From: a virus
Taxonomy: Duplodnaviria > Heunggongvirae > Uroviricota > Caudoviricetes
IMG/VR virus record: IMGVR_UViG_3300029162_000078
Coordinates: 1 to 13,007 of that record
Strand: one strand, 5' to 3'
Length of the DNA: 13,007 bases
The notes under the pieces were generated by a model. That model was not told the DNA's origin. It saw nothing but the letters and a program-made list of their open reading frames with translations, and searched no databases. A program made the position numbers and the translations under genes. This document shows positions 1,255 to 13,007 of the stretch, piece after piece (the stretch's first letter is position 1; the number at the start of each line of letters is the position of its first letter).

Positions 1255-1368
1255 ATAAAACCGGGTGATGCAAAAGTAGCCATTTGATTCACAAGGCCAT
1301 TGACGCATCGCCCGGTTAGTTTTAACCTTGTCCACCGTGATTCACGTTCGTGAACATGTCCTTTCAGG

Positions 1369-1444
1369 GCCGATATAGCTCAGTTGGTAGAGCAGCGCAT
1401 TCGTAATGCGAAGGTCGTAGGTTCGACTCCTATTATCGGCACCA
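1369..1444 (+). tRNA. thrW: tRNA-Thr (anticodon CGU)
   Basis: 76-nt sequence GCCGATATAGCTCAGTTGGTAGAGCAGCGCATTCGTAATGCGAAGGTCGTAGGTTCGACTCCTATTATCGGCACCA folds as a cloverleaf by hand: 7-bp acceptor stem, D-arm GCTC/GAGC, anticodon loop TTCGTAA (anticodon CGT), T-arm GTAGG/CCTAT, encoded CCA end. Confidence 0.93.
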
Positions 1445-1445
1445 T
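1399..1445 (+). repeat. attL: 47-bp direct repeat (3' end of thrW), left prophage junction
   Basis: Positions 1399-1445 are identical to 11853-11899, with mismatches immediately outside both ends (1398 c vs 11852 a; 1446 t vs 11900 c). The repeat covers the 3' part of the tRNA, typical of tRNA-targeting tyrosine integrases. Confidence 0.8.
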
Positions 1446-1458
1446 TAAAATCAATAAG

Positions 1459-2622
1459 TTACACATCATTAGTACCTTCCTTATTTTTTGACTGGGACAA
1501 ATTTGGGACCGATGGGTTCAGGATCGAGTCTATTTGCCGTGCGTGTTCGGTAAGGTGATTAGGTGCAAGGTGAGCATATCGACGAACCATTTCGATAGAC
1601 TCCCAGCCTCCCATTTCCTGTAACACTGACAACGGGACTCCGGCTTGAACCAGCCAACTTGCCCAGGTGTGTCTCAAGTCGTGAAATCTGAAATCATCAA
1701 TACCAGCCCGTCTCAGCGCCGCTTTCCAGGCTGTGTTTGCGTCATACCGCATCTTCCTTACTGTTGGCGCTTTCGTTCCGTCTGGTTTGGTACAGCTTTC
1801 CTTGTACACAAATACCCAACGGTGATGATTCCCGATTTGTTTTTTCAATACGCGACATGCAGTATCATTCAGCGCAACGCCAATTGCGCGGTTTGATTTA
1901 CTCTCTTCCGGGTTTATCCATGCCACCCGGCGCTGCATATCTATTTGTTGCCATTCAAGGTTGATGATGTTCGAGCGTCTTAAGCCTGTTGCCAGTGCAA
2001 ATTCAACAACAGACTTTAATGGCTCCGGACATTCATCAATCAGCCTTTGTGCTTCATGGGGCTCCAGCCAGCGGATCCGTTTATTCTTTGGTTGAGGCAC
2101 TTTAATAATTGGTGCCTTATCCAGCATTTTCCATTCACGCTCTGCGGCTCTTAGTAGGGCCTTTATAAATGAAAGATGCGTAGCCTTCGTTGCAACGGAC
2201 GCTGGTTTTGGCGTGTATTCTGGAACAGGTTTCCCTTTTTTTCTGCATGCTTCTGCCCTGAGTTTCCAGTTTTCCTCATGACGCCGGTTCGTCATTTTCT
2301 GCATTGCTGAATAAATTTTTGATTCAGTAATGTCTCTTAGTTGCATTCCTGCGAAATGTTGAAGCCAGAATCCGATCCGGCTTTTGTCATCGTCCAGCGA
2401 TTTTTTATGTGCTTTCTCTTCAAGCCACCTGACACACGCTTCCTCGAACGTTATATCAGGTATTTCACCAAGTTTGCTGACCCGCCATGCTTCAGCCTTT
2501 AGCTTGTCATGGAGTTCTGTCGCCTGCCTTTTGTCCTTTGTTCCAAGAGACTGTTTAAATCTTTTACCGTTCGGCAATGTGAAACTGGCGTACCATATTT
2601 CACCTCTGCGGAAGAGTGACAT
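1459..2622 (-). CDS. int: Tyrosine-type site-specific integrase, phage P22 Int-like
   Basis: 387-aa ORF. N-terminus [41 protein letters not shown] and C-terminal catalytic region (...[39 protein letters not shown]) match the P22-type integrase family as I recall it. Adjacent to the thrW att site. Confidence 0.9.
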
Positions 2623-2849
2623 TTTCTTTCCTCTGTTATGCCATCACCCGCGCTCACCTGGACAGTATGCAGCGGAGACTGAAGAGCCGCAATGCAGGCT
2701 TGTCGTGTTGTGAGGTAAGGAGATTTATTCTTAGTGGGATCTTTGCGTGTTGCCTGAAGACGCCCTGTGCGTATCCAGTTAATGGCAGTCGGTCTGGATA
2801 TCTTGAGAAAATGACAGGCCTCATCGAGTGTGAGGCTGTATGGCTCCAT
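2499..2849 (-). CDS. xis: Excisionase, P22 Xis-like (116 aa)
   Basis: Within ORF 2499..2933 the protein most plausibly starts at [31 protein letters not shown] (ATG at 2849..2847, overlapping the upstream gene's TAA as TAATG). 116 aa, and its 3' end overlaps the int start by 124 nt. The sequence resembles P22 Xis as I recall it. Confidence 0.75.
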
Positions 2850-3154
2850 TATTTCACCTCTTGTTGTGACATTGTTGAAAAATGGATACCTGCTCGTTGC
2901 TGCCAGACGATCCAACCGAGAGTCATATCCCATGCCATGTATTCGTTATCGCCGTTTTTTGCTCTCCGACGATCTACTAAGTCACCGAAACGCTTTTCCA
3001 TGAATAATTCATAAGCTTCGCGTTCATCTGGTTCTACTTCCAGAGATAGGAGTGCGATTTCATAAGCACGGCGCTCAATATCGTCTCGCACGTCAAGGCT
3101 GCTGATACGCTCTTTAATTTCTTTAATCAGTTCTTTGTCGGTAAAAGTGGTCAT
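2849..3154 (-). CDS. Hypothetical small phage early-region protein (101 aa)
   Basis: ORF MTTFTDKELIKEIKERISSLDVRDDIERRAYEIALLSLEVEPDEREAY... with GGAGG about 10 nt upstream of the ATG at 3154. Start overlaps the upstream gene's stop and its stop overlaps the xis start (TAATG), consistent with an operon. No recognisable domain. Confidence 0.5.
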   Translation of the reverse strand: MTTFTDKELIKEIKERISSLDVRDDIERRAYEIALLSLEVEPDEREAYELFMEKRFGDLVDRRRAKNGDNEYMAWDMTLGWIVWQQRAGIHFSTMSQQEVK

Positions 3155-3516
3155 TATGCTCCAGCCTCCGGTGCTTTTGGCATTACTGCCCAGTGAGTGA
3201 TATTGACGTTTTCAAGGTCCCCGACCTGAAATGTCCACTGCCATTCTCCGGTTTCTTTTTGTCCCCAGGTGTACCAGAGAGAACGCCAGCCAATTAGCCA
3301 GCCTTCTCCGTTAGCATCGAATAACAAAACACTTTCATTTGCTGGTGGCAGTTCAGTTGACACTGGTATTACTTTGTTTTCCTGTGCTGCACATTTAGCT
3401 TCAAGCGCATCGAATTTACGCACCAGGTATTCAGCATCTGTTTCATTCACTTTCAGATCTCGCGGTACACATCTCCCACGAAGAAACCCTTCCATTTCGA
3501 AAACATTCATGCGCAT
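3154..3516 (-). CDS. DUF551-like phage protein (120 aa)
   Basis: ORF with GGAG 8 nt upstream of the ATG at 3516. C-terminal region ...KVIPVSTELPP...GWLIGWRSLWYTWGQ...NITHWAVMPKAPE resembles the Trp-rich DUF551 signature common in lambdoid/P22-like early regions (motif recollection, not a search). Confidence 0.55.
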   Translation of the reverse strand: MRMNVFEMEGFLRGRCVPRDLKVNETDAEYLVRKFDALEAKCAAQENKVIPVSTELPPANESVLLFDANGEGWLIGWRSLWYTWGQKETGEWQWTFQVGDLENVNITHWAVMPKAPEAGA

Positions 3517-4073
3517 TTGCGTAACTCCGATAACTCGTTAAAACGTTCCATAAACATCCCGTAGGCATGGCCCGGTGCCTGTGGAATCACTTTGAACATC
3601 TCTGTTGCCGGGATACCTTCCAGTACAGGCCAGAAAGAGCCATCATCAAGCCCGAGATCGCGGCGTTCGGTTGCCAGCATAATGAGATCGGCATATTTCA
3701 CTGGCGTGCTCATAACAGGAGGTAACCCGTATTTCTCACGTATTACGGCGTCTATTTTTTCTTCCATCCGTTTATAGTCAGGAAGAAGTCGTTTCAGTGG
3801 TGCGGGGATGTCCTGGCAATATGCTTCTGTTGCATCATGCATTAAAGCTTCAAAAGCAAATTCCTGTGGCACCAGCTGGCTGCAAAGCACCGCATGTTGG
3901 GCGACACTGTAGAAGTGTGAAAGATGTCCTGCAAAGCGACAGATATTTGAAAGGGAAATGCCAGCATAATGCTGGGGTATGTTTCTGATGCGATGAAAGT
4001 GGTGGATTCTGCCGTATCGGATGCCGCCAGGCTGTTGCAGGGGGATATCTCGGTACTTCTGCCGCCGCCATCG
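3507..4073 (-). CDS. HD-superfamily phosphohydrolase, YfbR/YfdR-like 5'-deoxynucleotidase; no canonical start in frame (probable 5'-damaged or truncated gene)
   Basis: The track ORF 3507..3890 begins at a GTG, but the same frame is open upstream to a TGA at 4074-4076. That upstream stretch reads ...GIRYGRIHHFHRIRNIPQHYAGISLSNICRFAGHLSHFYSVAQHAVLCSQLVPQEFAFEALMHDATEAYCQDIPAPLK..., giving the H...HD metal-binding pattern of YfbR-type nucleotidases. There is no ATG/GTG/TTG between the stop and the first His motif. Confidence 0.55.
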   Translation of the reverse strand, partial: RWRRQKYRDIPLQQPGGIRYGRIHHFHRIRNIPQHYAGISLSNICRFAGHLSHFYSVAQHAVLCSQLVPQEFAFEALMHDATEAYCQDIPAPLKRLLPDYKRMEEKIDAVIREKYGLPPVMSTPVKYADLIMLATERRDLGLDDGSFWPVLEGIPATEMFKVIPQAPGHAYGMFMERFNELSELRKCA

Positions 4074-4778
4074 TCAGGCAAAAATTTCGTTGAGCAGGTG
4101 CAGAAAATGTGGCGTACCGGGAAACGCCTTTATGGTAACGCCAGCGACCTGGTCACCATGATCAAAACGCTTTCCGGTGTCAGCCTCGGCAGTGATCTGC
4201 AACCGCGCGGCGTCTGGAAAACGGACAGTAAAACCACCGCTACGGCGACGCAGCAGCGTAACGTGGTTGCCAGCACCCTTCGTACGACCGCAATCAGCGA
4301 AGCGGCGTATGCCGTCACCCGATTGCCTGCGCCAACAACTTCCGCGGTGATGCAGAATGCCGCAGTGGGGCAGGCAACAACAGCTGCACAGAGCACCGGC
4401 TGGCCTTCCGTCACGCATCCGGCACTGAACAATGCACCGGCGGTGAAAAACACGGTTGACCTGCCGACGTGGGAAGAACTGACTGACATTCGCGACACAC
4501 TGAATACGGCAATTGATAAGGAGTTGTCCCGTACAACCAGTGATGCGCTGTTTCTGGCGCTGCGCCGGGTGAAAGCAGATCTGAATGCGGATATCAACAC
4601 GCGCCTTGAACAGTCTGCACGGATCATTCAGCGCACACCGGATGAGGTTTTACCCGCGCTGGTGCTGGCGGCGACCTGGTTTGATAACGCGGCGCGTGAC
4701 GCGGACATTATTCGGCGTAATGCCATTACGCATCCCGGCTTTGTGCCGGTGATCCCTCTGAAGGTGCCAGTGCAATGA
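3969..4778 (+). CDS. Mu gp43 (N)-like DNA circulation protein, C-terminal fragment (N-terminal half missing)
   Basis: 269-aa ORF (frame open from 3951) whose stop overlaps the start of the next baseplate gene (ATGA at 4775-4778). Position and context match the gene upstream of gp44 in Mu-like tail modules. Far shorter than a full-length protein, and its 5' end runs into the antisense HD gene. Confidence 0.55.
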   Translation: MLGYVSDAMKVVDSAVSDAARLLQGDISVLLPPPSSGKNFVEQVQKMWRTGKRLYGNASDLVTMIKTLSGVSLGSDLQPRGVWKTDSKTTATATQQRNVVASTLRTTAISEAAYAVTRLPAPTTSAVMQNAAVGQATTAAQSTGWPSVTHPALNNAPAVKNTVDLPTWEELTDIRDTLNTAIDKELSRTTSDALFLALRRVKADLNADINTRLEQSARIIQRTPDEVLPALVLAATWFDNAARDADIIRRNAITHPGFVPVIPLKVPVQ

Positions 4779-5866
4779 ACGACAATGTCACGCTACGGGT
4801 AAATGGCCGGGAGTGGAATGGCTGGACATCGGTGCGCATCGGTGCCGGTATTGAACGGCTGGCGCGGGATTTCAGTGTGGAGATCACCCGCCAGTGGCCG
4901 GGTGATGAGGGTATCACCACGCTTCAGCCGCGCATTAAAAACGGTTCAAAAGTGGAGGTGCTGATTGGTGATGAGCTGGTGATCACCGGCTGGGTGGAGG
5001 CGACGCCCGTTCGTTACGATGCCCGTTCGGTCAGCACCGGTATTGCCGGACGCAGTCTGACCGCTGACCTGATTGACTGTGCAGCCGAACCGACACAGTT
5101 TAACGGACGCTCGCTGGTGCAGATAGCGCAGGCGCTTGCTGCGCCTTTCGGCATTGAGGTGGTGAACAACGGTGCGCCGTCGGGTGTTATTCCTGACGTC
5201 CAGCCCGATCACGGCGAAACGGTGATTGAGGTGATCAACAAAATACTCGGTCAGCAGCAGGCACTGGCTTACGACGACCCGCACGGCAGGCTGGTGATTG
5301 GCGGTATTGGCTCAACGCGGGCACATACCGCGCTGGTACTTGGGGAAAACATCCTTTCCTGTGATACGGAGAAGAGTATCCGGGAGCGGTTTTCAGTTTA
5401 CCAGGTGGCGGGGCAGCGTGCCGGAAACGATGATGATTTCGGTGAGGCCACCACCACCGCGCTGCGGGCCCGCACAGAGGATGCATTTATTGCCCGTTAC
5501 CGTCCGATGTATATCAGGCAGACAGGGCAGGCTACGGGGGCAGGCTGTATTGCCCGTGCGGACTTTGAAGCCCGACAACGGGCGGCGCGGACGGATGAAA
5601 CCACCTATGTGGTGCAGGGCTGGCGACAGGGTAACGGTACGCTGTGGCAGCCCAACCAGCGGGTGATTGTCTTTGATCCGGTCTGTGGTTTCGACAATAC
5701 CGAACTGCTTGTTTCGGAAGTCACGTTTACTCAGGACCAGAACGGCACCCTGACGGAAATCCGTGTCGGCCCACCTGATGCTTATCTGCCTGAACCCGAA
5801 GCCCCGGCGCGCGGAAAAAGAAAAAAGCCAGAGTACAGGAGGACCCGTTCTGATGAGGACGATTGA
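4775..5866 (+). CDS. Baseplate hub protein, Mu gp44 (P)-like / phage late control D family
   Basis: 363-aa ORF, translationally coupled to neighbours. Gene order gp43-gp44-gp45-gp46-gp47-gp48 matches the Mu N-P-Q-V-W-R baseplate cluster. GC-rich with Lys/Arg-rich C-terminus. Confidence 0.75.
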   Translation: MNDNVTLRVNGREWNGWTSVRIGAGIERLARDFSVEITRQWPGDEGITTLQPRIKNGSKVEVLIGDELVITGWVEATPVRYDARSVSTGIAGRSLTADLIDCAAEPTQFNGRSLVQIAQALAAPFGIEVVNNGAPSGVIPDVQPDHGETVIEVINKILGQQQALAYDDPHGRLVIGGIGSTRAHTALVLGENILSCDTEKSIRERFSVYQVAGQRAGNDDDFGEATTTALRARTEDAFIARYRPMYIRQTGQATGAGCIARADFEARQRAARTDETTYVVQGWRQGNGTLWQPNQRVIVFDPVCGFDNTELLVSEVTFTQDQNGTLTEIRVGPPDAYLPEPEAPARGKRKKPEYRRTRSDEDD

Positions 5867-6401
5867 AGCCATGCAGCGACAACTCCTCGGCCTGATTGGG
5901 CGGGCAGTGGTGAAAAGCATCAGTGCCGCCACGAAATGTCAGACCGTGGATGTGTCTCTGATTGCCGGTGAACCCAAAGCCGGGGTTGAACATCTTGAAC
6001 CCTACGGTTTTACCTCAAGGGCAAACAGCGGTGCGGAAGCGGTGGTGTTGTTTCCGGATGGCGACCGTTCTCATGCGGTGGTTGTTACGGTGTCGGACCG
6101 GCGCTACCGCCTGAAAGGGCTGCAGACGGGTGAGGTGGCTGTCTATGACGATCAGGGGCAGTCCGTGACGCTGACCCGGGAGGGGATCGTGGTGGACGGT
6201 GCAGGTAAAACGATCACGTTTCGCAATTCACCTAAAGCACGTTTTGAAATGGACCTGGAAGTGACAGGACAGGTGAAAGACCTGTGCGACTCCGGCGGCA
6301 CCACCATGTCAGCGATGCGGCTTGCCTATAACGGGCATCGTCACAGAGAGAACGGTCAGGGCAGTAACACCGACAAACCTGATAAAGCGATGGAGGCATG
6401 A
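5853..6401 (+). CDS. Baseplate assembly protein V / spike, Mu gp45-like
   Basis: ATG at 5853 preceded by AGGAGG (5837-5842). Protein MRTIEAMQRQLLGLIGRAVVKSISAATKCQTVDVSLIAGEPKAGVEHLEPYGFTS... is typical of gpV-type baseplate spike proteins. The track ORF begins at 5763, but the RBS supports 5853. Confidence 0.75.
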   Translation: MRTIEAMQRQLLGLIGRAVVKSISAATKCQTVDVSLIAGEPKAGVEHLEPYGFTSRANSGAEAVVLFPDGDRSHAVVVTVSDRRYRLKGLQTGEVAVYDDQGQSVTLTREGIVVDGAGKTITFRNSPKARFEMDLEVTGQVKDLCDSGGTTMSAMRLAYNGHRHRENGQGSNTDKPDKAMEA

Positions 6402-6826
6402 TGGAACTGTGGCTGACGGTGAACGGTAAACGCACCTGCGCCAGCGCACCGCTGGATCCGCTGACCCGCGCCGTGGTGATTTCCCTGTTTACCTGGCGGC
6501 GGGCGGAGCCTGATGACAACGCCGACGTCCCGATGGGATGGTGGGGGGATACCTGGCCTGCGGTACAGAATGACCGTTACGGCTCCCGACTGTGGCTGCT
6601 TCAGCGCAGCAAACTGACCAATCAGCTGGTGCAGACGGTAAGGGGGTATATCCGCGAATGCCTGCAATGGATGATTGATGACGGCGTGGTGTCCCGTATT
6701 GATCTGGATATCCGCCGCACCGGGATTAATGAACTGGGTAACAGTATCACTCTCTGGCGTCGTGACGGACCGGTAATGATTTCTTTTGATGATCTGTGGA
6801 GTGCGATAACGCATGGCGGACAGTGA
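6398..6826 (+). CDS. Mu gp46-like baseplate protein (GP46 family)
   Basis: 142-aa ORF. Start ATG overlaps the gp45 stop (ATGA). Size and position match the Mu V / gp46 family. Confidence 0.7.
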   Translation: MMELWLTVNGKRTCASAPLDPLTRAVVISLFTWRRAEPDDNADVPMGWWGDTWPAVQNDRYGSRLWLLQRSKLTNQLVQTVRGYIRECLQWMIDDGVVSRIDLDIRRTGINELGNSITLWRRDGPVMISFDDLWSAITHGGQ

Positions 6827-7871
6827 ATTTCAGCGCCCGACGCTGGCAGAAAATATCAGTATGCTCCGTAACGATTTATTCGCCAGGCTGGACGTCAGCG
6901 ACACGCTCCGGCGCATGGATGAAGACGTGCGGGCAAAGGTGTATGCGGCGGCGCTGCATACGGTTTACGGTTACATCGATTATCTGGCAATGAACATGCT
7001 GCCTGACCTGTGCGATGAGTCCTGGCTGGCGCGACATGCTGCGATGAAACGGTGTCCGCGCAAGGGGGCCACGACTGCCAGCGGGTATATGCGCTGGGAA
7101 GGCGTCAGCGATGGCCTGAAGGTGACCGCCGGGAGTGTTATTCAGCGCGATGACCTGGTTCAGTACACGGCAACTGCCGATGCAACCAGCGCCGGTGGTG
7201 TCCTGCGCGTGCCGATCGCCTGCTCAAGTGCAGGCGCGGTCGGTAACGCTGACGACGGTACGTCATTAATCCTGGTCACGCCGGTTAATGGTCTGCCGTC
7301 TTCCGGCGTGGCAGACACTCTGACAGGTGGATTTGATACTGAAGATCTGGAAACGTGGCGCGCCCGCGTCATTGAGCGGTATTACTGGACTCCTCAGGGC
7401 GGGGCTGACGGGGACTATGTTGTCTGGGCTAAAGAAGTGCCCGGCATTACCCGCGCATGGGCATACCGTCACTGGATGGGAACGGGGACTGTCGGTGTGA
7501 TGATTGCCGGCAGTGACCTGATTAATCCGATTCCGGAAGAATCAACGGAAACGGCGGCAAGACAACATATCGGGCCACTGGCCCCGGTGGCAGGCTCTGA
7601 TTTGTATGTGTTCAGGCCGGTGGCGCATACGGTGGATTTTCATATCCGTGTGACGCCGGATACACCGGAAATACGGGCTGCCATCACCGCGGAGTTGCGT
7701 TCGTTCCTGCTGCGTGATGGTTATCCGCAGGGAGAACTGAAGGTGTCGCGTATCAGTGAAGCGATTTCCGGTGCGAACGGGGAATACAGCCATCAGTTGC
7801 TTGCACCGGCGGAAAATATCTCCATTGCAAAAAATGAACTGGCGGTTCTGGGGACGATTTCATGGACGTGA
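6813..7871 (+). CDS. Baseplate J-like protein, Mu gp47 (W)-like
   Basis: 352-aa ORF overlapping the gp46 3' end. Size and position match baseplate J family proteins of Mu/e14-type modules. Confidence 0.8.
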
Positions 7872-7980
7872 CAAACGATGATTACATCCGCCTGTTGTCG
7901 GCACTGCTGCCGCCCGGTCCGGCGTGGTCAGCCAGCGATCCGGCGATTGCCGGTGCGGCACCGTCATTAACCCGCGTTCA
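7862..7980 (+). pseudogene. Truncated Mu gp48-like tail protein (DUF2313 family), N-terminal stub of about 30-40 codons
   Basis: Start ATG overlaps the gp47 stop. N-terminus [22 protein letters not shown] matches the conserved start of gp48/YmfQ-type proteins. The frame then runs antisense into the 3' end of tfa (stop at 7981-7983 on the minus strand), so the rest of the gene is deleted. Confidence 0.5.
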
Positions 7981-8418
7981 TCAGCGTGCGGATGCCGGAG
8001 GCGTAGGCCATTCAATATCTGGCGTACCGGAAGTATCGACCAGTTCCAGTGCGTCCAGATAATCCAGCCACAAATTATATTGCGCCAGTTCCTCACCTTT
8101 CAGGCGACCAATCGCCGCTTTACCAAGCCATTGCTTTCTGTTTATGTATTCGTTGATCTGATTAATCAATTGCTGCTTTTCCAATTCGGCTGCGGCAATT
8201 TGTTCCTCATGAGTTGGCGGTGGAATATCAATCCATGCAGGCATTCCGTCGATGACACCTCTGTATTTTCCTTCTGGTGCTTCCTTCATAAATTCGGCAG
8301 CAACAGTGTCGTCAATTTCGATTCCATCACCGGGCCATTCGCCGGATTCCTGATAAGCGATTTTAAGCTCCACAGGGAAAAACGCATTTTTATCGGCACT
8401 GAAAATATATTTCTGCAT
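7981..8418 (-). CDS. tfa: Tail fibre assembly protein (Tfa; U'-type copy of an invertible segment)
   Basis: 145-aa ORF with AGGA-type RBS. C-terminus ...[18 protein letters not shown] matches the conserved ...VDTSxxPDIEWP... end of E. coli Tfa proteins. Lies directly downstream of the tail-fibre variable fragment on the same strand. Confidence 0.75.
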
Positions 8419-8420
8419 TT

Positions 8421-8819
8421 CTACCGTCCTATCGAAACATAACTGAATCTGTATTGCTGTGAGATGTCACTGGTTGCCACACGCCACGCTGAATTACTGA
8501 TATGTTCAAAATTTACAGACAAAACCTGCGGGGCAGGACTCGACGGGTCTGACTGAACGGCATCAGACATAACACTGACTGAAACCATCGGCTGATTAGG
8601 GAATGGTATAGGGAAGTGTCCACTGATAAAGCGGGTCGTGTTTCCTGAAAAAGTGCCAAACTGAACAATATATCCACCTGGTAGCCTGAACCATCCCGAA
8701 CCAGAAGCGAATGCTCCCATATCCGGTATCTGATTATCTCCTGTGCCCACATCCCTTTTCGCCGCTTCTCCCAAACCAACGTTTATGAAAATGCAGAAAT
8801 AACGAGCAAATGGCATCAT
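8421..8819 (-). pseudogene. Tail fibre C-terminal variable segment (S'v-type), no functional start; remnant of the invertible segment
   Basis: Open frame ending TAG at 8421-8423, immediately upstream of tfa. The reading frame passes through the crossover site at 8766-8791, where in intact Gin/Pin systems the constant N-terminal tail-fibre part would be joined. No constant-part gene exists in this window. Confidence 0.5.
8766..8791. other. Din-family invertase crossover site (pix/gix/hix-like), right boundary of the former invertible segment
   Basis: TTCTCCCAAACC-AA-CGTTTATGAAAA: 26 bp with imperfect dyad symmetry and the AAACC-NN-GGTTT-like core of hix/gix/cix sites (recalled consensus). Located 55 bp upstream of the pin start, where the invertase-proximal site lies in Mu G, P1 C and e14 P segments. 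Confidence 0.5.
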
Positions 8820-8845
8820 TCCTGCTTTTGTCAGGGAGATCTACC

Positions 8846-9400
8846 ATGCTTATTGGCTATGTACGTGTGTCAACAAATGACCAGAACACAGATCTACAAC
8901 GTAATGCGCTGAACTGTGCAGGATGCGAGCTGATTTTTGAAGACAAGATAAGCGGTACAAAGTCCGAAAGGCCGGGACTGAAAAAACTGCTCAGGACATT
9001 ATCGGCAGGTGACACTCTGGTTGTCTGGAAGCTGGATCGGCTGGGGCGCAGTATGCGGCATCTGGTCATTCTGGTTGAGGAGTTGCGCGAACGTGGCGTT
9101 AATTTTCGCAGCCTGACGGATGCTATTGATACCAGCACACCGATGGGGCGTTTTTTCTTTCATGTGATGGGTGCCCTGGCTGAAATGGAACGAGAACTGA
9201 TTGTTGAACGAACAAAAGCTGGACTGGAAGCTGCTCGCGCACAGGGACGAATTGGTGGACGTCGTCCCAAACTTACACCAGAACAATGGGTGCAGGCCGG
9301 ACGATTAATTGCATCAGGCGTTCCTCGCCAGAAGGTGGCGATCATCTATGATGTTGGTATATCGACACTGTATAAGAAGTTTCCGGTCGGAGATAAATGA
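8846..9400 (+). CDS. pin: Serine recombinase, DNA invertase of the Pin/Gin/Cin/Hin (Din) family
   Basis: ATG at 8846 with AGGGAG RBS gives a 184-aa protein: MLIGYVRVSTNDQNTDLQ... (catalytic Ser in the YVRVST motif), resolvase core, C-terminal HTH (...GVPRQKVAIIYDVGISTLYKKF). The track ORF starts 12 codons upstream at 8810. Confidence 0.9.
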   Translation: MLIGYVRVSTNDQNTDLQRNALNCAGCELIFEDKISGTKSERPGLKKLLRTLSAGDTLVVWKLDRLGRSMRHLVILVEELRERGVNFRSLTDAIDTSTPMGRFFFHVMGALAEMERELIVERTKAGLEAARAQGRIGGRRPKLTPEQWVQAGRLIASGVPRQKVAIIYDVGISTLYKKFPVGDK

Positions 9401-9460: not shown

Positions 9461-10330
<870 letters not shown>

Positions 10331-11013: not shown

Positions 11014-11346
11014 ATGTCTGTCACAATTCAGGGAAATACCTCAACCGTTATTTCAAACAACTCCGCCCCGGAAGGAACATCAGAAATAGCCAAAATCACA
11101 AGACAAATTCAGGTGCTGACTGAAAAGCTTGGGAAAATCTCATCGGAAGAGGGGATGACGACACAGCAGAAAAAAGAAATGGCTGCATTGGTACAGAAGC
11201 AAATTGAAAGCCTCAGGGCTCAACTGGAGCAGTTGTTAAGGCAGCAGGCAGAGAAAAAGAATGAAGACGCGACAGTTCAGCCTGATAAAAAAGAAGAGAA
11301 AAAAGACGATACAAATACCGCTGGCACCATTGATATTTACGTCTAA
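11014..11346 (+). CDS. flxA: FlxA-like protein (sigma-28-regulated prophage gene family)
   Basis: 110-aa ORF MSVTIQGNTSTVISNNSAPEGTSEIAKITRQIQVLTEKLGK... with coiled-coil and Lys/Glu-rich C-terminus, a strong RBS, a class-3 flagellar-type promoter upstream and a terminator downstream. Confidence 0.8.
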   Translation: MSVTIQGNTSTVISNNSAPEGTSEIAKITRQIQVLTEKLGKISSEEGMTTQQKKEMAALVQKQIESLRAQLEQLLRQQAEKKNEDATVQPDKKEEKKDDTNTAGTIDIYV

Positions 11347-11852: not shown

Positions 11853-11899
11853 ATTCGTAATGCGAAGGTCGTAGGTTCGACTCCTATTATCGGCACCAT
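11853..11899 (+). repeat. attR: 47-bp direct repeat duplicating the 3' end of thrW; right prophage junction
   Basis: Identical to 1399-1445. A partial tRNA-Thr 3' fragment without the 5' half of the tRNA. The right boundary of the island lies here. Confidence 0.8.
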
Positions 11900-12362: not shown

Positions 12363-13007
12363 ATGGCTACTGCAGAGCAGATCAAAGCTTTATTGAAAAG
12401 CCACGTTGATCGTGATGATCAGCGTTTCTTTTCTATTGCTTTGCAGGTGGCAGCTAAGGAAGCAAGGCAAGGTCATCATAAGCTTGCTAATGATATAAAA
12501 AACTTAGTTGATAAAAATCAGAAAACAACGAGTTCTGTAGGTTTAGTTGAAAAACGACTTACACCATTTGTTAAGCAGCCTGATGGTGATCTTAAGGGGT
12601 TACTTGAGCAAACGAACAAGCCAGTACATCTTCAAGATCTGGTGATTTCTGGAAGCGTTAGGGAAAGATTGAATCAGGTTCTGCTTGAACAAAAACAGAA
12701 AGATAAACTTTCTGAGTTTGGGCTTATTCCAAGAAGAAAAATTCTTTTCACTGGTCCTCCCGGTACTGGTAAGACAATGTCCGCATCAGTCATTGCTACA
12801 GAGTTAAAGCTACCACTTTATACAGTCGTCTTAGATAATCTAATCACTCGCTATATGGGTGAAACTGCAGCTAAGCTGCGTTTAATTTTTGACCACATAC
12901 GGCAAACAAGAGCTGTATATTTTTTTGACGAGTTCGATGCTATAGGAACTCAGCGTGGCGCTCAGAATGACGTTGGAGAAATTCGGGTAATGACTCCAAC
13001 TTATTGA
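12363..13007 (+). CDS. Classic-clade AAA+ ATPase with N-terminal helical domain; ORF ends about 30 codons after Walker B (truncated, frameshifted, or cut by the window)
   Basis: Walker A ILFTGPPGTGKT, then YMGETAAKLRLIF and Walker B AVYFFDEFDAIG with the following TQRG motif. The ORF stops (TGA 13005-13007) before the expected NQLL...DG sensor region. The +2 frame over the last about 20 nt reads ...NDSNLL, which resembles that expected continuation. Preceded by about 460 bp of AT-rich non-coding DNA. Confidence 0.7.
   Translation: MATAEQIKALLKSHVDRDDQRFFSIALQVAAKEARQGHHKLANDIKNLVDKNQKTTSSVGLVEKRLTPFVKQPDGDLKGLLEQTNKPVHLQDLVISGSVRERLNQVLLEQKQKDKLSEFGLIPRRKILFTGPPGTGKTMSASVIATELKLPLYTVVLDNLITRYMGETAAKLRLIFDHIRQTRAVYFFDEFDAIGTQRGAQNDVGEIRVMTPTY

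What the first reader, a model, noticed from the sequence alone, without database searches (positions are those of the whole stretch)
2499..4073. Overlapping minus-strand operon of accessory early genes upstream of xis-int
Seen in sequence: the HD hydrolase, DUF551-like protein, 101-aa hypothetical, xis and int are chained by overlapping stop/start codons (two TAATG junctions, a 10-nt overlap at 3507-3516, and a 124-nt xis/int overlap), with GGAG-type RBSs in front of the middle genes. Established knowledge: the region between int-xis and the recombination genes of lambdoid/P22-like phages carries dispensable accessory genes. Inference: a YfbR-type 5'-deoxynucleotidase homologue here could alter nucleotide pools during infection; this is speculative.
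Basis: partly seen in the sequence, partly recalled or inferred. Interest (0 to 1): 0.35.

Follow-up and report, generated by a model that had tools for sequence, protein, structure and literature searches.

The report
Truncated yfdR-yfdS-yfdT prophage remnant genes
This is the well-known yfdR-yfdS-yfdT accessory gene cluster plus P22-type xis and int of an SfV-like prophage at the thrW tRNA gene, here cut short by a 25-kb internal deletion, so it is an ordinary decaying prophage remnant.

Summary
The sequence observation is correct. On the minus strand, int (1459-2622), xis (2499-2849), a 101-aa gene (2849-3154), a 120-aa DUF551 gene (3154-3516) and an HD gene (stop at 3507) are chained by overlaps of 124, 1, 1 and 10 nt. 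GAGG/GGAG motifs precede int, xis and both middle genes.

The three accessory genes are orthologues of E. coli K-12 CPS-53 yfdT, yfdS and yfdR (96-97% identity) and of SfV orf28-30 (98.5% nt). The same overlaps occur in both. About 35% of complete E. coli genomes carry the trio. The 124-nt xis/int overlap is identical in P22.

The HD gene has no start codon because an internal deletion of about 25.2 kb (junction 3954-3958) removed its first 28 codons. The deletion also removed everything upstream, including the early regulatory region. It fused the gene to the middle of a Mu-N-like tail gene.

Published work shows K-12 YfdR binds DnaA. Multicopy yfdQ + yfdR + (yfdS or yfdT) blocks replication initiation, and YfdR's nucleotide affinity is weak. 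Neither yfdQ nor intact yfdR survives here, so the nucleotide-pool idea is unsupported for this copy. Already known; low interest.

The parts
1369..1444 (+). tRNA-Thr(CGT), thrW. Its 3' part (1399-1445) is the attL core of the prophage.
   Evidence: ARAGORN and Rfam tRNA. The 47-bp stretch 1399-1445 is repeated exactly at 11853-11899.
1459..2622 (-). int, P22/SfV-type tyrosine integrase, 387 aa
   Evidence: Pfam Phage_integrase, E 3e-48. About 80% nt identity to P22 int and 98.5-99.1% to SfV, SfIV and SfII. GAGG lies 11 nt before the ATG.
2499..2849 (-). xis, P22-type excisionase, 116 aa. Overlaps int by 124 nt.
   Evidence: PHROG 2907 excisionase, E 1e-50, residues 1-116 on profile 2-117/117. 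Pfam HTH_17. P22 xis is 351 nt with the same 124-nt overlap. GAGGT SD present; the upstream ATG 2933 has none.
2849..3154 (-). yfdT orthologue (SfV orf28), 101 aa. Its stop overlaps the xis start (TAATG).
   Evidence: 96% identical to K-12 YfdT and 100% to the O157 strain 7784 protein. No Pfam family. PHROG 660, function unknown.
3154..3516 (-). yfdS orthologue (SfV orf29), 120 aa, C-terminal DUF551. Its stop overlaps the yfdT start (TAATG).
   Evidence: 96% identical to K-12 YfdS. Pfam DUF551 22.2 bits against a cut-off of 22. PHROG 583, E 1e-82.
3507..3958 (-). 5'-truncated yfdR (SfV orf30), HD-domain protein. Codons about 29-178 remain and there is no start codon. Its 3' end overlaps the yfdS start by 10 nt.
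   Evidence: 97% identical to K-12 YfdR over 150 aa, with residues 1-28 absent. The first canonical in-frame start, GTG 3890, corresponds to Val52, just after His50, the putative first metal ligand.
3954..3958 (.). Deletion junction with 2-5 bp microhomology. About 25.2 kb of prophage is missing between yfdR codon 28 and the middle of the Mu-N-like gene.
   Evidence: Window 1265-3958 matches L006 1-2694 and window 3954-7996 matches L006 27900-31943. Alignment of both parents and three independent assemblies shows the same junction.
3959..4073 (-). Fortuitous extension of the open yfdR frame into the antisense strand of the tail gene. Not HD-gene sequence.
   Evidence: Translation. This stretch matches 'DNA circularization protein' genes on the + strand.
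3954..4778 (+). 3' portion of the Mu-N-like 'DNA circularization protein' tail gene, with about 168 codons lost. It is followed by baseplate genes (4775-7871).
   Evidence: Pfam GpP/gp44 domains in the next ORF. Gp45, GP46 and Baseplate_J in equivalent loci.
11853..11899 (+). attR core, an exact 47-bp copy of the thrW 3' end, marking the far end of the roughly 10.5-kb remnant.
   Evidence: exact repeat. (homology to the SfV attP-side sequence and to the O157 attR region).

Best explanation
Region 2499-4073 is the promoter-distal end of the leftward early operon of an SfV-like lambdoid prophage integrated at thrW. In transcription order it reads yfdR (HD), yfdS (DUF551), yfdT, xis, int.

Shown here:
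- The three accessory genes are orthologues of K-12 CPS-53 yfdR/yfdS/yfdT and SfV orf30/29/28.
- Their stop/start overlaps and SD motifs are conserved in those relatives, which is the layout expected for translational coupling.
- The xis-int pair is P22-type, and the mosaic boundary lies exactly at the xis start.
- A single internal deletion of about 25.2 kb removed yfdR codons 1-28, the position where SfV and K-12 carry yfdQ, the repressor and early regulatory region, and the replication, lysis, head and most tail genes.

Inferred for the intact phage: the genes are transcribed from the early leftward promoter after induction or infection. From the K-12 experiments, YfdR binds DnaA domain I. 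Together with YfdQ and either YfdS or YfdT, it damps initiation at host oriC.

Inferred for this window: that activity cannot operate, because yfdR is an untranslatable pseudogene and yfdQ is gone. yfdS, yfdT, xis and int are intact reading frames with no detectable promoter of their own upstream. They are most likely silent or weakly expressed passengers.
For: Anatomy:
- Searches give the coordinates, overlaps and SD motifs, and show no start codon before GTG 3890.

Identity:
- Searches give 96-97% identity to K-12 YfdR/S/T and 99-100% to O157 strain 7784.
- Searches give 98.5-99.1% nt identity to SfV/SfII/SfIV, with the same overlaps annotated.
- One search shows the K-12 overlaps (9512-9521, and a shared base at 9874).
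- One search shows P22 xis/int overlapping by 124 nt.

Deletion:
- define the junction.
- The intact relative with the same gene order is the thrW prophage of strain 7784.
- The junction is identical in three independent assemblies, and the truncated tail protein appears in 48 collection blocks in the same frsA-crl-phoE-proBA-thrW context.

Function of the intact cluster (PMC4776307):
- The minimum set is yfdQ + yfdR + (yfdS or yfdT).
- YfdR binds DnaA in a manner dependent on Phe46.

Other:
- No sigma-70-like promoter on the minus strand between 3500 and about 8074.
- The trio covers at least 80% of the query in 1,896 of 5,426 complete E. coli genomes and in 34 phage records.
Against: - Expression was not measured. 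A consensus scan cannot exclude weak or non-sigma-70 promoters, or antisense read-through from the tail module.
- The DnaA-directed role rests on multicopy overexpression in K-12. Its authors state it could be an overexpression artefact, and deletion of yfdQRST gave no phenotype.
- The roles of YfdS and YfdT remain undefined. The AlphaFold model of YfdT was of low confidence (pLDDT 59.8).
- The true parent of the left arm beyond the junction is unknown. The 100%-identical O157 relative itself has no intact yfdQ annotated.
Confidence: 0.88

Rival explanations
1. The truncated HD gene is still translated from an internal start (GTG 3890, giving 127 aa, or ATG 3842, giving 111 aa as some gene callers predict). 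The fragment would retain nucleotidase or DnaA-binding activity.
For: The frame is open. Gene callers report 127-aa and 111-aa products in equivalent loci. The HD dipeptide (His69-Asp70) and the C-terminal part are retained.
Against: - No SD-like motif lies upstream of GTG 3890.
- A product starting at Val52 or Met68 lacks His50. That residue aligns with the conserved first His of the HD fold in the Atu1052 structure 2gz4.
- It would also lack the N-terminal 51-67 residues.
- No promoter was detected.
- yfdQ, which is required for the known phenotype, is absent.
Confidence: 0.04
2. yfdS and/or yfdT remain expressed in the remnant and benefit the host on their own, for example through tolerance to oxidative stress. 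This would explain why the remnant persists in a lineage.
For: - Both ORFs are intact with their own SD motifs, including in three other assemblies carrying the same deletion.
- K-12 yfdS deletion mutants are reported to be H2O2-sensitive (Wang et al. 2010, as cited in PMC4776307).
Against: - No promoter-like site was found upstream.
- Identity to intact prophage copies is 100%, so there is no signal of selection either way.
- Persistence is equally explained by recent clonal descent.
Confidence: 0.12
3. One reading: YfdR acts mainly as a 5'-deoxynucleotidase that reshapes dNMP/dNTP pools during phage development.
For: - HD-domain homology is real: PHROG 318 'deoxyribonucleoside 5' monophosphate phosphatase', E 3e-91.
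- There is a weak Pfam YfbR-like match.
- RefSeq names yfdR a 5'-deoxynucleotidase.
Against: - Scores against YfbR models are below cut-off: Pfam 24.9 vs 25.9 bits, NCBIfam 20 vs 122 bits.
- In any case it cannot apply to this truncated copy.
Confidence: 0.15
4. The yfdR/tail-gene junction is an assembly chimera rather than a real genomic arrangement.
For: None of 5,426 complete E. coli genomes contains the junction.
Against: The identical junction is present in three independent ENA/Logan assemblies with the same chromosomal flanks. The junction-specific 269-aa product is indexed in 48 collection blocks.
Confidence: 0.02

Closest known systems
E. coli K-12 cryptic prophage CPS-53 (KpLE1) yfdQ-yfdR-yfdS-yfdT cluster (Noguchi & Katayama 2016, PMC4776307)
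   Same: YfdR, YfdS and YfdT are 96-97% identical. Gene order is the same, as are the 10-nt yfdR/yfdS overlap and the 1-nt yfdS/yfdT overlap.
   Different: - Here yfdR lacks codons 1-28 and yfdQ is absent.
- The downstream partner is P22-type xis-int at thrW, not ypdJ/torI at argW.
- The published DnaA-inhibiting gene set is therefore incomplete.
Shigella flexneri serotype-converting phages SfV / SfII / SfIV, int-xis-orf28-orf29-orf30-orf31
   Same: 98.5-99.1% nt identity over int to orf30. Same overlaps, same thrW attachment and the same Mu-like tail module on the opposite strand.
   Different: - The window has lost about 25 kb between orf30 and the gpN-like tail gene.
- No gtr genes are seen next to the att site.
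- It is a remnant, not a phage.
Intact SfV-like thrW prophage of E. coli O157:H7-lineage strain 7784 (NZ_CP018247.1)
   Same: 99.96% identity over window 1265-3958 and 97.5% over 3954-7996. Same insertion site and orientation.
   Different: It carries full-length yfdR (178 aa) and the intervening 25.2 kb of early, lysis, head and tail genes.
Phage P22 xis-int and the 'ea' accessory region
   Same: About 80% nt identity over int-xis. Identical gene lengths (387 and 116 aa) and the identical 124-nt overlap. Accessory genes follow xis in the same operon.
   Different: P22 has eaC/eaG/eaA after xis instead of yfdT/S/R. Homology stops exactly at the xis start codon, a mosaic boundary.
E. coli YfbR, HD-domain 5'-deoxynucleotidase
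   Same: HD-superfamily fold and the H...HD...D motif in full-length YfdR. Weak profile match over residues 16-79.
   Different: - Below the family cut-offs.
- Reported to have much weaker nucleotide affinity.
- This copy is truncated.

Membership tests
yfdR/yfdS/yfdT orthologue group (CPS-53 / SfV orf28-30) | High sequence identity to the K-12 proteins over their length | tested here: met
   YfdS 96% over 120/120 aa, YfdT 96% over 101/101 aa, YfdR 97% over the 150 retained residues.
yfdR/yfdS/yfdT orthologue group (CPS-53 / SfV orf28-30) | Same gene order and stop/start overlaps (10 nt and 1 nt) | tested here: met
   Window, K-12 and SfV agree.
Functional yfdQRST replication-initiation inhibitor set (PMC4776307) | yfdQ present | tested here: not met
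   The sequence upstream of yfdR is replaced by a tail gene. No DUF2303/YfdQ ORF is present in the window.
Functional yfdQRST replication-initiation inhibitor set (PMC4776307) | Intact, translatable yfdR | tested here: not met
   Codons 1-28 are deleted. No ATG, GTG or TTG lies between the stop at 4074-4076 and GTG 3890.
Functional yfdQRST replication-initiation inhibitor set (PMC4776307) | yfdS or yfdT present | tested here: met
   Both ORFs are intact.
Functional yfdQRST replication-initiation inhibitor set (PMC4776307) | DnaA binding / inhibition of oriC initiation | not testable with these tools
   Requires pull-down, flow cytometry or an hda-185 suppression assay.
YfbR-like 5'-deoxynucleotidase (Pfam PF12917 / NCBIfam NF003009) | Score at or above the curated family cut-off | tested here: not met
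   Pfam 24.9 bits against 25.9. NCBIfam 20.4 bits against 122; full-length K-12 YfdR also scores only 19.9.
YfbR-like 5'-deoxynucleotidase (Pfam PF12917 / NCBIfam NF003009) | Complete H...HD...D metal-binding set in a translatable product | tested here: not met
   His50 is encoded at 3896-3894, but it lies upstream of the first possible start, GTG 3890 (Val52).
DUF551 (Pfam PF04448) | Domain match at or above the gathering score | tested here: met
   The 120-aa protein matches residues 50-117 to profile 3-68/68, at 22.2 bits against a cut-off of 22.0, which is marginal. It is 96% identical to YfdS, a recognised DUF551 protein.
P22-type Xis/Int recombination module | Full-length excisionase and tyrosine integrase homology with the characteristic 124-nt overlap | tested here: met
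   PHROG 2907, E 1e-50, end to end. Pfam Phage_integrase, E 3e-48. P22 annotation shows the same overlap.
P22-type Xis/Int recombination module | Flanking att repeats at thrW | tested here: met
   Exact 47-bp repeats at 1399-1445 and 11853-11899.
Lambdoid leftward early (pL-type) operon | Early promoter and repressor region upstream of the accessory genes | tested here: not met
   It is present in the relatives: a cI/XRE gene in L006 and cI in SfV. It is deleted here. No promoter-like site lies on the minus strand between 3500 and 8074.

The most novel reading that the evidence does not exclude
The roughly 10.5-kb remnant (attL-int-xis-yfdT-yfdS ... PD-T4-3-attR) may not be inert debris. It could be a domesticated and still excisable mini-island. 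In that case int/xis and the intact yfdS/yfdT would be expressed from a cryptic or read-through promoter. YfdS/YfdT would then act independently of YfdQ/YfdR, for example in stress tolerance or in interference with incoming SfV-like phages. The evidence here does not exclude this: the ORFs, SD motifs and both att cores are intact, and the same deletion is found in many samples. Nothing positively supports it either.
Probability: 0.08. Interest if true: 0.35.

Novelty: already known. Interest (0 to 1): 0.1.

Why it matters
It matters little beyond correct annotation.

- The HD ORF should be labelled a 5'-truncated yfdR pseudogene, not a 5'-deoxynucleotidase.
- xis should be annotated as 116 aa.
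- The locus should be recognised as a deletion derivative of an SfV-like thrW prophage.
- The deletion junction (3954-3958) could serve as a lineage marker. It is absent from 5,426 complete E. coli genomes but recurs in metagenome and read-archive assemblies.

The biologically open question is what YfdS, YfdT and YfdQ do for YfdR-DnaA inhibition in an intact phage. That is better addressed with SfV or CPS-53 than with this truncated copy.

Tried and rejected
1. **Shared motif between YfdS and YfdT.** Either gene suffices in the K-12 suppression assay, so I asked whether they share a domain.
   - A MAFFT alignment suggested a common F-x-E...G-x-x-V-x-R...D-x-E-Y pattern.
   - BLASTP gave only E = 0.34.
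   - A YfdT-family HMM scored YfdS at -1.3 bits, and 2,047 of 5,000 shuffles scored at least as high.
   - I rejected the pattern as an alignment artefact.
2. **Structure of YfdT.** AlphaFold2 with a 24-sequence alignment gave a low-confidence all-helical model (mean pLDDT 59.8, pTM 0.53). I did not run a fold search because the matches would be meaningless.
3. **Solved-structure relatives.** The YfdS sequence and the mixed YfdT-family/YfdS profile (alignment A5) gave nothing significant. Full-length YfdR matched only Atu1052 (2gz4), an HD protein.
4. **Anti-phage defence role.** PADLOC gave no hit for YfdT, YfdS or truncated YfdR.
5. **Non-coding RNA.** Rfam found only the tRNA.
6. **Promoter for the remnant operon.** Consensus scans found none on the minus strand upstream, and the counts were below shuffle expectation.
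7. **Assembly artefact.** Rejected, because the junction is identical in independent assemblies.
8. **Tool note.** Two scripts failed because locus files were not yet available. The comparisons were redone with the alignment tools.
Full report
**Setting**

The window begins with proA (1-1254) and tRNA-Thr(CGT) thrW (1369-1444). A prophage segment follows immediately on the minus strand. The 47 bp at 1399-1445, the 3' end of thrW, recur exactly at 11853-11899. These are attL and attR of an integrated element of about 10.5 kb.

**Check of the observation**

A script on the raw sequence, the ORF list and the reverse-strand read agree.

| Gene | Start | Stop | Length |
|---|---|---|---|
| int | ATG 2622 | TAA 1459 | 387 aa |
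| xis | ATG 2849 | TAA 2499 | 116 aa |
| 101-aa gene | ATG 3154 | TAA 2849 | 101 aa |
| 120-aa gene | ATG 3516 | TAA 3154 | 120 aa |
| HD frame | none (see below) | TGA 3507 | open to 4073 |

- The overlaps are 124 nt (xis/int), 1 nt at each of two TAATG junctions, and 10 nt (3507-3516).
- GAGG, GAGGT, GGAGG/GGAG and GGAG motifs begin 8-15 nt before the int, xis, 101-aa and 120-aa start codons.
- The HD frame stays open up to 4073, below an in-frame TGA at 4074-4076. This explains the finding's end coordinate.
- That frame has no ATG, GTG or TTG before GTG 3890, and GTG 3890 has no SD motif.

**What the genes are**

- int has a Phage_integrase domain (Pfam, E 3e-48).
- xis has an HTH_17 domain.
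- The 120-aa protein matches DUF551 marginally (22.2 bits against a cut-off of 22).
- The HD frame gives sub-threshold YfbR-like and HD_3 matches.

Direct comparison is decisive. The 101-aa, 120-aa and HD products are 96%, 96% and 97% identical to E. coli K-12 CPS-53 YfdT, YfdS and YfdR. They are 100%, 100% and 99% identical to the proteins of the thrW prophage of O157-lineage strain 7784. At the DNA level, int through yfdR is 99.1% identical to phage SfII, 98.9% to SfIV and 98.5% to SfV, where the genes are orf28, orf29 and orf30.

K-12 and SfV annotations show the same 10-nt and 1-nt overlaps. The chained architecture is therefore a conserved property of the module and not chance. The layout is the one expected for translational coupling, which is an inference.

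The module is very common. At least 80% of the 1,109-bp yfdT-yfdS-'yfdR stretch is present in 1,896 of 5,426 complete E. coli genomes and in 34 phage records. Partial matches in the listed rows begin near query positions 314-317 and 657-660, close to the yfdS/yfdT and yfdR/yfdS junctions (3154 and 3507-3516).

**xis and int**

Homology to P22 (about 80% nt) runs from int to exactly the xis start at 2849 and stops there. P22 xis is 351 nt and overlaps int by 124 nt, as here. The PHROG excisionase profile matches residues 1-116 end to end (E 1e-50). ATG 2849 has a GAGGT SD, whereas the upstream ATG 2933 has none.

**Why the HD gene has no start codon**

- Window 1265-3958 aligns to the strain 7784 prophage (L006) at positions 1-2694, with 99.96% identity.
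- Window 3954-7996 aligns to L006 27900-31943, with 97.5% identity.
- In that intact relative, yfdR is 178 aa. The right-hand breakpoint lies inside a 442-aa Mu-N-like 'DNA circularization protein' gene.

The window therefore carries an internal deletion of about 25.2 kb, with 2-5 bp of microhomology at 3954-3958. The deletion removed:

- yfdR codons 1-28
- the position where SfV and K-12 carry yfdQ
- the repressor and early control region
- the replication, lysis and head genes
- the tail sheath, tube and tape-measure genes
- the first 168 codons or so of the gpN-like gene

Bases 3959-4073 of the 'HD frame' are simply the antisense strand of that tail gene.

The junction is real. It is base-for-base identical in three independent ENA/Logan assemblies with the same frsA-crl-phoE-proBA-thrW flank. 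The junction-specific 269-aa ORF is indexed in 48 blocks of the assembly collection. It is absent from all 5,426 complete E. coli genomes searched.

The first available start, GTG 3890, corresponds to Val52. That is two residues after His50, which aligns with the conserved first histidine of the HD fold in the Atu1052 structure 2gz4. A product from GTG 3890, or from ATG 3842 as some gene callers predict (111 aa), would lack a metal ligand and the N-terminal helices. The HD gene is a pseudogene.

**How the module works: shown versus inferred**

Published experiments on the K-12 orthologues (Noguchi & Katayama 2016, PMC4776307) show the following.

- Multicopy yfdQ + yfdR + (yfdS or yfdT) suppresses overinitiation in hda-185, dnaAcos and seqA mutants, and inhibits initiation in wild-type cells.
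[quoted passage not shown] - Deleting the cluster has no replication phenotype.
- The authors note that SfV encodes YfdQRST homologues (which they cite as ORFs 29-31), and they propose a role in shutting down host replication during phage growth.

From this I infer that, in the intact SfV-like phage, the genes are expressed from the early leftward promoter and act on host DnaA. In this window, two of the three required components (yfdQ and intact yfdR) are missing. Consensus scans find no sigma-70-like promoter on the minus strand between 3500 and about 8074, with counts below shuffle expectation. The most likely state is therefore a silent remnant with intact but unused yfdS, yfdT, xis and int frames.

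It is weak even for the intact gene: YfbR family scores are below cut-off (Pfam 24.9 against 25.9 bits, NCBIfam about 20 against 122 bits).

**Extra analysis of the small proteins**

A database search with YfdT found 831 relatives, and those listed are named almost entirely as E. coli or Shigella. A conserved core (residues about 33-88) is combined with variable N-termini. In 173-177-aa relatives it is joined to a C-terminal DUF551 domain and the same ...PQEVK terminus. One such gene sits among accessory genes downstream of the replication genes of another prophage, next to an Ead/Ea22 gene (L009). YfdT thus resembles a DUF551-less member of a mosaic accessory-protein family.

I tested whether YfdS and YfdT share a motif that could explain their interchangeability. 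The result was negative: BLASTP E = 0.34, and an HMM score of -1.3 bits that 41% of shuffles equalled or exceeded. An AlphaFold2 model of YfdT was all-helical but of low confidence (pLDDT 59.8). No solved structure is related by sequence to YfdS or YfdT, and there were no PADLOC defence hits.

**Verdict**

This is the already named and partly characterised yfdRST module, and here it is decapitated by a 25-kb deletion. It is an ordinary cryptic-prophage remnant, already known and of low interest.

Noticed in passing
window 9461-10285 (-): A 274-aa LEM-3-like GIY-YIG protein matches the PADLOC PD-T4-3 anti-phage defence model end to end (E 2.6e-140). It sits inside the prophage remnant next to the invertase. 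The intact O157 relative carries the same gene at the same place.
   Followed up: partly
window 12363-13007 (+), cut by the window end: The N-terminal 214 aa of an AAA ATPase match IetA of the IetAS defence system (E 1.9e-50). The gene lies just outside attR, so a second defence gene abuts the prophage.
   Followed up: no
window 7871-8820: The tail module has a second lesion. Homology to the intact prophage stops at 7996, inside the gp48/ymfQ-like gene. It resumes in inverted orientation within the tail-fibre and fibre-assembly cassettes (7993-8243, 8717-8784) next to a Pin/Gin-type invertase (8810-9400). The constant part of the tail-fibre gene is missing.
   Followed up: partly
window 3961-3975: A perfect 15-bp palindrome, CCAGCATAATGCTGG, lies 3 bp from the deletion junction. 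It belongs to the gpN-like gene, since other genomes match 100% from 3957 onward. It is imperfect in strain 7784. Whether a hairpin here favoured the deletion is speculation.
   Followed up: no
window 2499-2933 (-); L001 7200-7634; L008 4041-4484: Public annotations give xis as 144 aa (RefSeq) or 147 aa (SfV), overlapping yfdT by about 85-94 nt. The P22 homology boundary, the PHROG profile and SD placement all favour the 116-aa form starting at 2849.
   Followed up: yes
L009 4001-4522 (E. coli CP072688.1); proteins P0028-P0034: The conserved YfdT core also occurs fused to a C-terminal DUF551 domain in 173-177-aa proteins encoded among accessory genes downstream of the replication genes of other lambdoid prophages, next to Ead/Ea22. 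YfdT looks like a DUF551-less variant that keeps the same QEVK terminus.
   Followed up: partly
window 11014-11346 (+): A 110-aa FlxA-family protein (Pfam FlxA in the equivalent locus L003) lies between the PD-T4-3 gene and attR. The strain 7784 relative has an AraC-family regulator in the corresponding interval, so the attR-proximal cargo differs between relatives.
   Followed up: no
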